Positions 44,856 through 47,800 of a stretch of DNA of 64,000 nt are shown one piece after another. The stretch lies in the NCBI RefSeq assembly GCF_016903815.1, contig NZ_CP069973.1; one strand, 5' to 3'. Made by a program: the position numbers. This DNA comes from Escherichia coli. GTDB taxonomy: Bacteria > Pseudomonadota > Gammaproteobacteria > Enterobacterales > Enterobacteriaceae. Every line of letters starts with the position of its first letter. Positions within the stretch are counted from its first letter, which is position 1.

Positions 44856-47800
44856 TAATGCTTTGCGGGCCGACAAGAAATGTCGGCCCGCATTATTCAG
44901 GCACTTTCGCGAATGGGTTCGATTTCATTCAGCGTATCAATTAACGGTTGCGGCTTACCAATAAGATAACCCTGCATATAATCGATCCCCAAAGAGAGCA
45001 CCGCCTCGCGGATCTCTTCGTTTTCAACGTACTCTGCCACTACCCGCATTTTCTTCATTCGCGCCAGGTGGCAAATCGACGCCACTATCTGATAATCCAG
45101 ACTATTTGACACAATATTGCGGATAAAACTGCCGTCAATTTTAAGCAGATCGGCATTCACATTTTTAAGCCGCGCATAGCTGGCGTAGCCGGTGCCGAAA
45201 TCATCAATCGCAATCTGGCAGCCTAATTCCTGAAGATGCTGCAAGGTGATTTGCGCCTGCTTAACATTGGTCAGAGCATTACTTTCGGTGACTTCAAAAA
45301 TAAGTTGCCACGCTTCAATCTGATATTTAGCCAGCAGCTGACTGACTTCAACGGGAAAACGAGCCTGACATACCGAGGTTGGCGACAGATTAATGGCAAA
45401 ACGGTGAGCGGGCATCTTCGCTCTGTTTTCAGCCATAAATTGCAGCGTATGTTCAATGACCCACATGTCGATACTCGACGATAAACCAAATTCGTGCGCG
45501 ACCGGCAAGAAGCTGTCGGGGCTGATCAGTTCATCATTCTCACCTTTCATACGCAGAAGAATTTCATGGTAGACATCGCCACGCATACCGGTAATCGGCT
45601 GGGCCATCAGGAAAAAATGGTTGTGTTCCAGCGCCTGCTGTAGCCGATTCATCATCGCGACTTTATCTTTCAATTCGCGTTGCAAATACATTGCCCCGCG
45701 ACGCTGCATATTTTCAGGGGCGTTGGTCACGATGGAAAGCTCGGCGACCGTATTTAGCTCTCCCAGCAGCAGGTAGATATGATTCACTGGCGAGCGCACA
45801 TAGCAGTAACTGACGCCAATCTGCGGTTGCATCGGCATTCCATCCCAAAAGAAACGAAATTGCTTGAGATGGCTATCCAGTGCGGTAATGCGCTCCTGGT
45901 GCGATTCTGTATTCAGTCGCAGCGCGAGATCGTTACCCGAAAGCTGATAAACATCCTCACCCGGTTCCAGCAAGGGTGACAGCCAGTGAGAAAGTTTTTG
46001 CTTGTATTGAATCCGCAGCATGATGCCATAGTTCTTAACCAGCATTTCCATGCCAGGGATGCGTAAATAACAAAGCGCAGACCAGGGGGCATCACGCAAC
46101 GCGCGATTCAGGGCGCGAACATTTGGCAGATGAACCACCGGGTCCACATACGCAAGCCGCTGAATGCGTCTGGCTACCGCTCTCTGACGGGTTGCCAGTA
46201 CAGCCATATAATTGACAATAAAAGAGAATACCAGATAACTGGAGGAGGTTATGGTCAGCTGCGTGGTATAGCCAGGATAAATGGGAATGTAATTTTGATA
46301 GCTGTGGATGCTGATCATCAACACGACCGCCCAGAGCAGCGAAATTAGCTTATAACCATAGCGCATCGCTCCCCACATCATCAGGGGCAGCAATAATGAC
46401 AAGGTATAGTTGGTGCTAAAAATTGTGCTTTTTTCATTTAACGGCATGCATAACAGCAGCAGTAAAGCACCTAATGCCAGTAGCCAGAGTGCGAACTCTT
46501 TTTTGGTGACTTTTACATCAACCTGCTGTTTTAATTGCGAATAATAACTACGTAAATAAAACGGATTTCGCACTGCACGAATGATGAAGTAGCACAGCGG
46601 GACACCAATCAGATTGCCCACCAGTAAGGCCTGATAATTGATTAAGGTCCCGAGGTTAAAAGGCATGACGCCGACCAGATTTTCTCTGCTCGCCAGTAAT
46701 CCTACAAACGCAGCAAACTGGAAAAGTATCAGAAACAGCGTTGCAGGAAACACAATCTGCCAGAATATACGCTGGGAAATTAAACGGGTATCACCATGTG
46801 AAACGTTGTTACGCCGGGGAGTAAAGACCCTGTAACCGCCCCAACAGAGAATGATAATGATAATAAAATTAGCCGTTAATGAGAGCGTTTCGTAAAAACC
46901 CAGCTCTGCATATTTGCGGACAAAAATCCCTAAGGCGATCCCTGGCAATGCCGCCCAGCTGAAAAACATCATCATGCTGATCATCAGAGCCAGAGGCAGA
47001 TAAAAGAGAAAAACCTCACCGGAAGAAATATGCGCGAAAGTATTAATGTGGGCGAAAATGGGCAAGATTAAAGAAGGCAGGAACAGCGGAAGCCCCCACC
47101 ATTTATCACGTATTTTTATATAAGTTGCATTCAGTTTCATAGATGCTCAGCAGAATCCCCCACATCCTGAAGGAGGTGTATTCAGACAGGCATCCCACCT
47201 GACTTCGAATGATGATTATTCATCACTATAGAGAGCATTGATTCTAAGTGTCATATGAAAGTTCCAATTGATATATATCAAACAAAATAACCCTGATTAA
47301 TGAATTATTACGTTTATCATGTTAATTCATCATTATTACATCATCATTGTAAATAATTAAATTAACTTCCATAACATTAAAATATGTATCCACTGACGCT
47401 TTTTTACATAACGAAGAATTGACCATTTTGTCCTGTTGTGCCTTAATGTAAGTACCGTCCACAGCGTGGGACATACTTCAAGGAACCTTTTGTGAGTCAG
47501 GCAACCAGTATGCGAAAACGACACCGATTTAACAGTCGCATGACCCGTATCGTACTGCTCATCAGCTTTATCTTCTTCTTTGGCCGTTTTATCTACTCGT
47601 CCGTCGGTGCATGGCAGCACCATCAGAGCAAAAAAGAAGCTCAGCAATCCACACTCTCCGTCGAATCACCGGTACAACGTTAGCGGTTACCTTCTCCACT
47701 TTCACAGAACATAACGGCACCTCGCTGTCGGATGCTTTTGCTCTTTGGGATTATCAAAGCGGCAGATATTCTTTCATCTTAAATTTTACGTCTTTGTCCT

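What the first reader, a model, noticed from the sequence alone, without database searches (positions are those of the whole stretch)
47141..47491. AT-rich divergent pdeF/yfgG control region containing a perfect FNR consensus
The 350-bp region is very AT-rich and contains TTGATATATATCAA, a perfect TTGAT-N4-ATCAA match, upstream of the EAL phosphodiesterase gene. This fits anaerobic induction of c-di-GMP degradation. The tiny membrane protein gene yfgG is transcribed divergently from the same region and might share the control.
Basis: partly seen in the sequence, partly recalled or inferred. Interest (0 to 1): 0.35.

Follow-up and report, generated by a model that had tools for sequence, protein, structure and literature searches.

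The report
Known FNR site of pdeF promoter
The perfect FNR box between pdeF and yfgG is real, but it is the already published oxygen-sensing switch that turns on the c-di-GMP phosphodiesterase gene pdeF (yfgF) without oxygen, and the neighbouring gene yfgG has its own separate promoter.

Summary
Window 47141-47491 is the 351-bp E. coli pdeF(yfgF)/yfgG intergenic region (34% GC, core 26%, window 52%). TTGATATATATCAA at 47268-47281 is the only perfect TTGAT-N4-ATCAA in the 64 kb.

It is already known. Papers citing Lacey et al. 2010 describe it as the FNR box at -41.5 of a class II FNR-dependent yfgF promoter with -10 TAGAAT. Myers et al. 2013 list it as a predicted FNR site under an FNR ChIP peak.

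My footprint agrees. The TTGA/TCAA half-sites, the 21-nt gap to a TAnnAT -10, and the distance to the pdeF ATG (138-157 nt) are kept in Escherichia, Citrobacter, a Salmonella-like locus, Raoultella, Kosakonia and other enterobacterial contigs.

H-NS covers the region in vivo. In glucose minimal medium, anaerobic induction of yfgF appears only in a hns/stpA mutant.

Shared control of yfgG is not supported. yfgG has its own invariant promoter (TTGACC-17-CTTAAT, TSS 47454), the box lies at -179.5 from that start, and yfgG is in neither table of FNR-dependent operons that I searched.

The one new lead is the pdeF mRNA leader. It carries an almost invariant GGAUG block and a co-varying hairpin with GGA in its loop, which suggests CsrA-type post-transcriptional control. 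This is untested.

The parts
47268..47281 (-). FNR box TTGATATATATCAA (palindromic), centred at 47274.5, which is -41.5 of the pdeF promoter
   Evidence: Only perfect match in the window. PatSer score 16.08 and located at an FNR ChIP-seq peak in Myers 2013 Table S6. TTGA and TCAA are invariant in every aligned ortholog.
47241..47246 (-). pdeF -10 hexamer TAGAAT, 21 nt downstream of the box
   Evidence: Named as the -10 element in PMC3718329. The TAnnAT positions and the ungapped 21-nt spacing to the box are invariant in alignments A1 and A4.
47233..47234 (-). pdeF transcription start, inferred from the published -41.5 position and the -10; not mapped here
   Evidence: Arithmetic. Myers 2013 Table S9 records one known TSS for yfgF, with Lacey 2010 as the reference.
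47141..47233 (-). pdeF 5' leader, about 93 nt
   Evidence: Runs from the inferred TSS to the ATG at 47140. Unusually conserved across genera.
47182..47203 (-). Almost invariant leader block GTCAGGTGGGATGCCTGTCTGA (core GGTnGGATrCCTGyCT); contains the first GGA (47195-47193)
   Evidence: 14 of the 16 core positions are invariant in 9 sequences from at least 5 genera, and the block is nearly invariant in 18 Escherichia/Citrobacter sequences. Function unknown.
47156..47174 (-). Leader hairpin TCCTTCA-GGATG-TGGGGGA with the second GGA (47167-47165) in the loop
   Evidence: 20 of 24 distinct orthologous leaders have an uninterrupted hairpin of at least 4 bp (at least 3 G-C) around a GGA, against a mean of 2.6% of shuffles. 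The stem sequences differ between species.
47208..47227 (-). 5'-proximal leader hairpin AGTGATGA-ATAA-TCATCATT
   Evidence: Present in the minimum-free-energy fold. An equivalent hairpin with a different loop length is found in most Citrobacter sequences.
44897..47140 (-). pdeF (yfgF) coding sequence: MASE1, degenerate GGDEF and EAL domains; c-di-GMP phosphodiesterase
   Evidence: ORF list and RefSeq annotation.
47293..47312 (.). Conserved AT-rich block CTGATTAATGAATTATTACG at -60 to -79 of the pdeF promoter; binding factor unknown
   Evidence: Core positions are invariant in 18 Escherichia/Citrobacter sequences. Not clearly kept in more distant genera.
47200..47430 (.). AT-rich core (26% GC), part of an H-NS-enriched region
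   Evidence: Composition. H-NS ChIP-chip regions 2626274-2628408 (anaerobic) and 2624400-2628963 (aerobic) in U00096.2 coordinates correspond to window 46453-48587 and 44579-49142. An H-NS site was found in this spacer by genomic SELEX.
47419..47447 (+). yfgG promoter: -35 TTGACC (47419-47424), 17-nt spacer, -10 CTTAAT (47442-47447) preceded by TGc
   Evidence: Predicted in Shimada 2014. Invariant in all 18 Escherichia/Citrobacter sequences and found again in 7 more distant loci.
47454..47454 (+). yfgG transcription start
   Evidence: TSS 2627275 (U00096.2) in Peano 2015. A sigma-70 ChIP-seq peak at 2627279, height 11,933, in Myers 2013 Table S1. Coordinates mapped through.
47492..47683 (+). 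yfgG coding sequence (DUF2633; Ni/Co stress response protein)
   Evidence: ORF list and annotation. Nickel/cobalt tolerance phenotype in PMC6338753.

Best explanation
The box is the single FNR operator of the class II, FNR-dependent pdeF (yfgF) promoter.

Mechanism. Without oxygen, the [4Fe-4S] FNR dimer binds TTGATATATATCAA centred at -41.5. There it overlaps a poor -35 region (TTGGAA, 15-nt spacer) and recruits RNA polymerase sigma-70 holoenzyme to the -10 TAGAAT. This produces a pdeF mRNA with a leader of about 93 nt, and so raises c-di-GMP phosphodiesterase activity under anoxia.

H-NS/StpA. The surrounding AT-rich DNA is coated by H-NS/StpA. This lowers FNR occupancy and masks the induction under some conditions, namely exponential growth in glucose minimal medium.

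yfgG. It is transcribed from its own strong promoter, which binds RNA polymerase holoenzyme in vitro without added factors. Its start site is 221 bp from the pdeF start site, and it is not driven by this box.

Shown: the sequence, its conservation, in vivo FNR and H-NS occupancy, and the effect of the hns/stpA deletion (the last three from published tables).

Taken from the literature without seeing the primary data: FNR-dependent reporter expression and the mapped start site.

Inferred: the class II protein contacts.
For: Sequence
- It is a perfect consensus and the only one in the window. The chance of one in IGR-like sequence is about 0.004.

Literature
- RegulonDB curation lists FNR as activator of yfgF under anaerobiosis.
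- PdeF protein is undetectable aerobically and is described as anaerobically induced.

In vivo binding
- An FNR peak was called by all three ChIP-seq peak callers and by the ChIP-chip caller (Table S5). The peak centre at 2627100 corresponds to window 47279, on the box. The site scores 16.08; only six sites at ChIP-seq peaks score higher in the part of Table S6 that I read.

Footprint
- 19 of 21 Escherichia/Citrobacter loci with enough upstream sequence, and 7 of 8 more distant loci, have the box with 0 or 1 mismatch 138-157 nt upstream of the ATG (139-149 in all but one locus and two Citrobacter loci that carry a 13-nt leader insertion). Two of the three exceptions (L019, L021) carry TTGACATAAGTCAA, with 2 mismatches, at the same aligned position. 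The third (L034) appears disrupted at the 5' end of the gene.
- The half-site cores and the -10 are invariant and the 21-nt gap has no indels, although the PdeF N-terminus is only 41-67% identical in the distant loci.

H-NS
- ChIP regions span the intergenic region.
- The FNR peak average rises from 0.35 to 1.68 in the hns/stpA mutant (Table S7).
- yfgF is 4.3-fold higher anaerobically only in that mutant (Table S11).
Against: - Myers 2013 found no FNR-dependent change in yfgF mRNA in wild type in glucose minimal medium (Table S9).
- The primary paper (Lacey 2010) is not held, so I did not see its reporter and start-site data.
- The base at the inferred start (47233) is a C. I found no independent start-site record.
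- Table S6 marks the site as not overlapping H-NS enrichment, whereas Table S3 lists H-NS regions that span it. This is an internal inconsistency that I could not resolve.
- A second, consensus-only promoter (ATGACA-18-TATAGT) would put the box at -56.5.
Confidence: 0.93

Rival explanations
1. The box is a shared, bidirectional FNR site that also controls yfgG.
For: The two genes are divergent in every genome examined, with a spacer of about 350 bp. yfgG mRNA is 2.2-fold higher anaerobically in wild type (Table S12). Anaerobic nickel uptake would give a physiological rationale for a Ni/Co tolerance gene (plus my own knowledge that nikABCDE is FNR-activated).
Against: The box is at -179.5 from the yfgG start, and no second site with 2 or fewer mismatches lies anywhere in the spacer. 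yfgG has a near-consensus -35, a 17-nt spacer and an extended -10. It binds RNA polymerase holoenzyme in vitro without added factors and carries a large sigma-70 peak. yfgG does not appear in the FNR-dependent Tables S8 and S10 (term search). The box-to-yfgG distance is 276 nt in the Salmonella-like locus against 213-217 nt elsewhere, while the box-to-pdeF distance is kept. Natural IS1 insertions at 47311-47318 separate the two promoters in some strains.
Confidence: 0.05
2. The box is a chance match in AT-rich, H-NS-bound DNA. FNR may bind it but without regulatory consequence.
For: The region is AT-rich. FNR is bound, yet no FNR-dependent expression change was seen in glucose minimal medium (Table S9). 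Myers 2013 describe many such sites that are bound without a detected effect.
Against: The box, its spacing to the -10 and its distance to the ATG are conserved in genera where the spacer is not AT-rich (GC up to 0.50) and where the protein has diverged to about 45% identity. FNR-dependent expression is published. Anaerobic induction appears when H-NS/StpA are removed.
Confidence: 0.02
3. pdeF is transcribed from the consensus-like promoter ATGACA-18-TATAGT (47254-47225). FNR at about -56.5 would then act from a non-standard position, or only as an anti-silencer against H-NS.
For: This is the best sigma-70 consensus match on the pdeF strand, at 10 of 12 positions. Shimada 2014 list it as the predicted yfgF promoter in a spacer that binds RNA polymerase holoenzyme in vitro.
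Against: The TATAGT hexamer falls in the least conserved part of the alignment and is absent from Citrobacter and more distant genera, whereas TAGAAT/TAAAAT is invariant at TAnnAT. -56.5 is not a productive FNR position (established knowledge of class I and class II spacing). Anaerobic induction is larger, not smaller, without H-NS/StpA, so FNR is not merely an anti-silencer.
Confidence: 0.05

Closest known systems
The published E. coli K-12 yfgF (pdeF) promoter (Lacey, Partridge & Green 2010, Microbiology 156:2873; summarised in PMC3718329)
   Same: It is the same locus, the same 14-bp box and the same -10. In 46900-47699 the window differs from K-12 at three bases only. One of them, 47263 (T in the window, A in K-12), lies at -30 of the promoter and outside the box.
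   Different: Nothing of substance differs. The window comes from a non-K-12 strain. The allele at 47263 is probably the commoner one: 3313 genomes match the 60-nt query exactly, and 2089 differ by at least one base.
Canonical class II FNR-activated promoters such as narG, nirB, yfiD and the synthetic FF-41.5
   Same: A TTGAT-N4-ATCAA site centred at -41.5 that replaces a functional -35, followed by a recognisable -10. The PatSer score (16.08) is in the same range as nirB and narK (17.06) and yfiD (17.25).
   Different: No co-activator site (NarL/NarP, IHF) was identified. Under standard anaerobic glucose conditions the output is masked, unlike at those promoters.
FNR sites masked or dampened by H-NS/StpA (Myers 2013 category 7; for example hlyE and ttdR)
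   Same: AT-rich DNA under an H-NS ChIP region. FNR occupancy and anaerobic induction both increase in the hns/stpA mutant.
   Different: Here FNR is already detectably bound in wild type, so the site is dampened rather than fully masked (Tables S5 and S7).
CsrA-controlled leaders of c-di-GMP genes (dgcT/ycdT and dgcZ/ydeH; Jonas et al. 2008, from my own knowledge and cited)
   Same: The pdeF leader has two conserved GGA motifs 28 nt apart. One sits in the loop of a co-varying hairpin, and in E. coli both read RGGAUG.
   Different: Neither conserved GGA overlaps the Shine-Dalgarno sequence. I found no binding or expression data for pdeF. This is a resemblance only.

Membership tests
Class II FNR-activated promoter | Inverted repeat matching TTGAT-N4-ATCAA | tested here: met
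   Perfect 10 of 10 match at 47268-47281. TTGA and TCAA are invariant across orthologs.
Class II FNR-activated promoter | Site centred near -41.5 from the transcription start, overlapping the -35 region | tested here: met
   An invariant 21-nt gap to the conserved -10 TAGAAT puts the centre at -40.5 or -41.5. The published value is -41.5. The start site was not mapped independently here.
Class II FNR-activated promoter | FNR occupies the site in vivo under anaerobiosis | tested here: met
   Read from published data. Myers 2013 Table S5 shows a peak called by all three ChIP-seq peak callers and by the ChIP-chip caller, and Table S6 marks the site as lying at a ChIP-seq peak.
Class II FNR-activated promoter | Transcription depends on FNR and on anaerobiosis | tested here: inconclusive
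   Published as FNR-activated. However, there is no FNR-dependent change in glucose minimal medium (Table S9), and the O2-dependent 4.3-fold change appears only in the hns/stpA mutant. The primary reporter data are not held.
Class II FNR-activated promoter | Weak or absent -35 hexamer, so that the promoter needs the activator | tested here: met
   The best -35-like hexamer is TTGGAA (4 of 6) with only a 15-nt spacer to TAGAAT, and there is no TGn extension (sequence).
H-NS/StpA-silenced AT-rich region | AT-rich DNA with H-NS occupancy, derepressed in an hns/stpA mutant | tested here: met
   The core is 26% GC. H-NS ChIP regions span it and genomic SELEX found an H-NS site. Derepression is shown in Tables S7 and S11. 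Table S6 says 'None' for this site, which is an unresolved inconsistency.
Shared activator site for divergent promoters | Site at an activating distance from both start sites, with both genes depending on the factor | tested here: not met
   The box is at -179.5 from the yfgG TSS. yfgG does not appear in Tables S8 and S10 (term search). The distance to yfgG is not kept in the Salmonella-like locus.
CsrA-binding mRNA leader | Two or more GGA motifs, at least one in a hairpin loop, spaced 10-63 nt apart | tested here: met
   GGA at 47195-47193 and at 47167-47165, 28 nt apart. A GGA-in-loop hairpin occurs in 20 of 24 distinct leaders against 2.6% of shuffles.
CsrA-binding mRNA leader | A site overlapping the Shine-Dalgarno sequence or start codon | tested here: not met
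   The likely SD (GAG, 47148-47146) contains no GGA. The nearest GGA (47158-47156) ends 15 nt upstream of the AUG (sequence).
CsrA-binding mRNA leader | Direct CsrA binding and csrA-dependent expression | not testable with these tools
   There is no mention of yfgF or pdeF in the held supplements of the E. coli CsrA CLIP-seq study. No supplements are held for the Salmonella CLIP-seq study. No paper in the library links the two in its text.

The most novel reading that the evidence does not exclude
Besides the known FNR switch, pdeF may carry a second, post-transcriptional control in its 93-nt leader. The leader has an almost invariant GGUnGGAUrCCUGyCU block and, 28 nt downstream, a co-varying hairpin that displays GGA in its loop. 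Together these would be a dual CsrA-type binding site, or the target of another RNA-binding regulator or sRNA. Such a control would link the Csr system to anaerobic c-di-GMP degradation. It could also help explain why FNR is bound while pdeF output stays low in exponential glucose cultures.
Probability: 0.3. Interest if true: 0.4.

Novelty: already known. Interest (0 to 1): 0.12.

Why it matters
The finding itself adds nothing new. The FNR site, its -41.5 position, its in vivo occupancy and the anaerobic role of PdeF are all published.

The work here adds three things:
- A cross-genus footprint showing that FNR control of pdeF is ancestral in Enterobacteriaceae, whereas the AT-richness is confined to the Escherichia/Citrobacter loci examined. 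From this I infer that the H-NS overlay is lineage-specific.
- Evidence against shared FNR control of yfgG.
- A testable lead: the pdeF leader is better conserved than the protein and resembles a CsrA-type target. If real, this would connect two global networks (Csr and FNR) at one c-di-GMP phosphodiesterase.

Tried and rejected
- Rfam scan of 47050-47750 at E <= 10: only two sub-threshold chance hits. No known RNA family covers either leader.
- RNAalifold on the MAFFT alignment of the leader: it proposed long-range pairing of the GGUGGGAU block with the pre-SD segment, supported only by one-sided changes and no compensatory pairs. The single-sequence fold has z = -0.32. I did not adopt this structure.
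- Mini-ORF reading of the invariant block (AGGUG..AUG CCU GUC UGA): rejected as the main reading, because AUG is AUA in three Citrobacter sequences and in Kosakonia.
- Second upstream ORF from ATG 47165: not conserved; there is an immediate stop in Citrobacter.
- The 50-aa 'hypothetical protein' that PGAP annotates at 47322-47474 (minus strand): its conserved residues are the reverse complement of the yfgG -10 and -35 elements, and the ORF is broken or absent in many Citrobacter and other genera. I treat it as spurious.
- Hand comparison of the -60 to -79 block with Fur, ArcA, NarL, IHF, TyrR and NsrR consensus sequences recalled from memory: no convincing match, so no claim is made.
- Lacey 2010, Kang 2005 and Jonas 2008 are not held.
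- No yfgF or yfgG entries in the held supplements of Federowicz 2014 or Potts 2017. No matching start-site coordinates in Ettwiller 2016.
- The search for homologous proteins returned mostly truncated or frameshifted PdeF fragments. I used them only as handles to fetch loci.
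Full report
**1. What is in the sequence**

The window is E. coli DNA. A 701-nt query around the finding matches 5,422 of 5,426 complete E. coli genomes. The features under it are annotated pdeF and yfgG. The gene order ppx, pdeF, yfgG, yfgH, yfgI, guaA is that of K-12.

pdeF (747 aa, minus strand) starts at 47140 and yfgG (63 aa, GTG start, plus strand) at 47492.

Locally, window coordinate + 2,581,798 gives the NC_000913.3 coordinate. The older U00096.2 coordinate is 1,977 lower.

The strain is not K-12. In 46900-47699 it differs from K-12 at three bases. One of them, 47263, lies at -30 of the pdeF promoter and outside the box.

The region is 34% GC and its core 47200-47430 is 26%, against 52% for the window.

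TTGATATATATCAA at 47268-47281 is the only perfect TTGAT-N4-ATCAA in the 64 kb. The expectation is 0.06 per window, and 6 of 100 shuffles gave at least one. A 351-bp sequence with the region's own first-order composition contains a perfect site with probability 0.004.

**2. It is a known site**

PMC3718329, from the laboratory that characterised the gene, summarises Lacey, Partridge & Green 2010. It states three things:
- yfgF is maximally expressed anaerobically.
[quoted passage not shown] Enteritidis)'.

On the pdeF strand, TAGAAT is at 47246-47241, 21 nt downstream of the box. A box centre at -41.5 puts the start at 47233.

The RegulonDB curators list 'FNR, yfgF, Activator, Anaerobiosis'. 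A later proteomic survey found PdeF below detection aerobically because it 'is induced anaerobically'. The primary 2010 paper is not in the library, so I did not see its reporter and start-site data.

**3. Genome-wide data on the same site (Myers et al. 2013, PMC3688515, supplementary tables)**

- Table S6 lists a predicted FNR site at 2627088 with the sequence TTGATATATATCAA and PatSer score 16.08, marked as lying at an FNR ChIP-seq peak. In the part of the table that I read, only six sites at ChIP-seq peaks score higher.
- Table S5 records the peak as called by all three ChIP-seq peak callers and by the ChIP-chip caller. It was absent from an earlier ChIP-chip study.
- Table S9 gives the peak summit as 2627100, which is window 47279, on the box. 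The estimated target is yfgF.
- Table S9 is also the list of peaks with no FNR-dependent expression change in glucose minimal medium.
- Table S3 lists H-NS-enriched regions 2626274-2628408 (anaerobic) and 2624400-2628963 (aerobic). These are window 46453-48587 and 44579-49142, and both span the whole intergenic region.
- Shimada 2014 also found an H-NS site in this spacer by genomic SELEX.
- In a hns/stpA double mutant the FNR peak average rises from 0.35 to 1.68, flagged significant (Table S7). yfgF becomes 4.3-fold higher without O2, a change listed as seen only in that strain (Table S11).
- One inconsistency remains. Table S6 marks this site as overlapping no nucleoid-protein enrichment, although the Table S3 regions include it.

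FNR and H-NS both bind here, the register is -41.5, and FNR-dependent expression is published but condition-dependent.

**4. Independent test: phylogenetic footprint**

A scan of one genome per species with the PdeF MASE1 domain returned 24 loci from Escherichia and Citrobacter.

- 21 of these loci have enough upstream sequence to test, and 19 of the 21 carry the box with 0 or 1 mismatch 138-157 nt upstream of the ATG. All but three lie at 139-143 nt: one locus is at 138, and two Citrobacter loci with a 13-nt leader insertion are at 157.
- The other two (L019, L021) have TTGACATAAGTCAA, with 2 mismatches, at the same aligned position.
- In the 18-sequence alignment the TTGA and TCAA cores and the TAnnAT positions of the -10 are invariant. 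There is no gap between them.

Eight more distant loci were fetched through PdeF fragments. They comprise a Salmonella-like genome, Raoultella terrigena, Kosakonia sp. and unnamed assemblies. I infer the Salmonella identity from the box TTGACTTAAATCAA and the -10 TACAAT, which match the published description.

- Seven of the eight have the box, five perfect and two with TTGAC, 139-149 nt from the ATG. They share the same ungapped spacing to TAnnAT.
- The eighth locus (L034) appears disrupted at the 5' end of the gene.
- In these distant loci the PdeF N-terminus is only 41-67% identical to E. coli, so the operator is much better conserved than the protein it controls.
- The spacer GC content in these genera is 0.38-0.50. 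The AT-richness is therefore a feature of the Escherichia/Citrobacter loci, while FNR control is older. By inference the H-NS overlay is likewise lineage-specific.

The alternative consensus-like promoter ATGACA-18-TATAGT would put the box at -56.5. Its -10 lies in the least conserved part of the alignment, so I reject it.

**5. yfgG**

- Peano 2015 list a yfgG start at 2627275 inside a sigma-S ChIP peak. That position is window 47454, an A located 7 nt after CTTAAT.
- Shimada 2014 predicted TTGACC-17-CTTAAT, at 47419-47447, in a spacer that binds sigma-70 holoenzyme without added factors.
- Myers Table S1 has a strong sigma-70 peak at 2627279.
- This promoter, with a TGc extension, is invariant in all 18 Escherichia/Citrobacter sequences and is found again in the seven distant loci.
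- The FNR box is at -179.5 from this start. No other site with 2 or fewer mismatches lies in or near the spacer.
- The box-to-yfgG distance is about 60 bp longer in the Salmonella-like locus, while the box-to-pdeF distance is the same there.
- yfgG is 2.2-fold higher anaerobically in wild type (Table S12). A term search found it in neither table of FNR-dependent operons (Tables S8 and S10).
- In strains ECA64 and CB6837 an IS1 element sits at 47311-47318, between the two promoters.

Shared FNR control is therefore not supported. The modest anaerobic increase in yfgG has another, unidentified cause.

**6. Mechanism**

Shown or published:
- FNR binds the box anaerobically.
- The geometry is class II.
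- The -35 is poor (TTGGAA with a 15-nt spacer).
- H-NS/StpA cover the region, and removing them raises both FNR occupancy and anaerobic induction.

Inferred from established knowledge of class II CRP/FNR-family activation: bound FNR contacts RNA polymerase to compensate for the missing -35.

The physiological output is more PdeF, and hence c-di-GMP hydrolysis, under anoxia. This is the published conclusion.

**7. What else turned up**

The pdeF leader (47233 to 47141) is more conserved than the coding region.

*The invariant block.* A block GTCAGGTGGGATGCCTGTCTGA lies at 47203-47182. Its 16-nt core GGTnGGATrCCTGyCT is invariant at 14 positions across nine sequences from at least five genera.

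*The GGA hairpin.* Downstream, 47174-47156 forms the hairpin TCCTTCA-GGATG-TGGGGGA.
- In 20 of 24 distinct orthologous leaders an uninterrupted hairpin of at least 4 bp (at least 3 G-C) encloses a GGA. The mean in shuffles is 2.6%.
- The stems differ between species. Examples are AACCCC/GGGGTT, CCTGCA/TGCGGG, GCCTC/GAGGC and ATACCC/GGGTAT.
- The two conserved GGA motifs are 28 nt apart, and in E. coli both read RGGAUG.

*The CsrA resemblance.* This resembles a dual CsrA site. That comparison rests on my own knowledge of the CsrA SELEX consensus RUACARGGAUGU and of dual-site spacing. Against membership:
- No conserved GGA overlaps the weak Shine-Dalgarno sequence.
- Rfam has no match.
- No paper or held supplement links CsrA to pdeF.

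I offer it as a lead, not a finding.

**8. Verdict**

The main interpretation is correct but already published. The yfgG extension is not supported. Novelty: already known. Interest is low, with a modest untested lead in the leader RNA.

Noticed in passing
window 47141-47233 (minus strand), especially 47182-47203 and 47156-47174: The pdeF 5' leader is better conserved than the PdeF protein. It has an almost invariant block (core GGTnGGATrCCTGyCT) and a co-varying hairpin with GGA in its loop. The two GGA motifs are 28 nt apart, which resembles a dual CsrA-type site. No Rfam family and no literature link was found.
   Followed up: partly
window 47293-47312: An AT-rich block CTGATTAATGAATTATTACG lies at -60 to -79 of the pdeF promoter. 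Its core is invariant in 18 Escherichia/Citrobacter sequences but not clearly kept in more distant genera. It may be a site for an unidentified second regulator.
   Followed up: partly
window 47322-47474 (minus strand): NCBI's pipeline annotates a 50-aa 'hypothetical protein' (WP_000017552.1) inside the intergenic region in many E. coli genomes, but not in K-12. Its conserved residues are the reverse complement of the yfgG -10 and -35 elements, and the ORF is broken in many relatives. It is probably a spurious call.
   Followed up: yes
window 47311-47318; locus L027 619-1388: In strains ECA64 and CB6837 an IS1 element is inserted here, with the 8-bp duplication CGTTTATC. It lies 30 bp beyond the FNR box and separates the pdeF and yfgG promoters by about 0.8 kb.
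   Followed up: yes
window 47263: A common polymorphism lies at -30 of the pdeF promoter, 5 nt from the box: T in the window and A in K-12. 3313 genomes match the 60-nt query exactly and 2089 differ by at least one base. Any effect on promoter strength is unknown.
   Followed up: partly
window 47457-47472: The yfgG leader begins with the hairpin GTCCAC-AGC-GTGGGAC, directly after the start site. Its stem co-varies between Escherichia and Citrobacter (for example GCCCGT/ATGGGC).
   Followed up: no
window about 39155 and about 52419: Two further sites marked as lying at FNR ChIP-seq peaks in Myers 2013 Table S6 map into this window: upp/purM (TTGACTTTAGTCAA) and guaB/xseA (TTGATCTCGCTCAC). Both are listed as showing no FNR-dependent expression change in glucose minimal medium.
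   Followed up: no
window 47700-48000 (yfgG-yfgH spacer): A second very AT-rich spacer (22-31% GC) lies inside the same H-NS-enriched region. The yfgH/yfgI genes are absent next to yfgG in several of the more distant genera, where a LysR-type regulator gene sits there instead.
   Followed up: no
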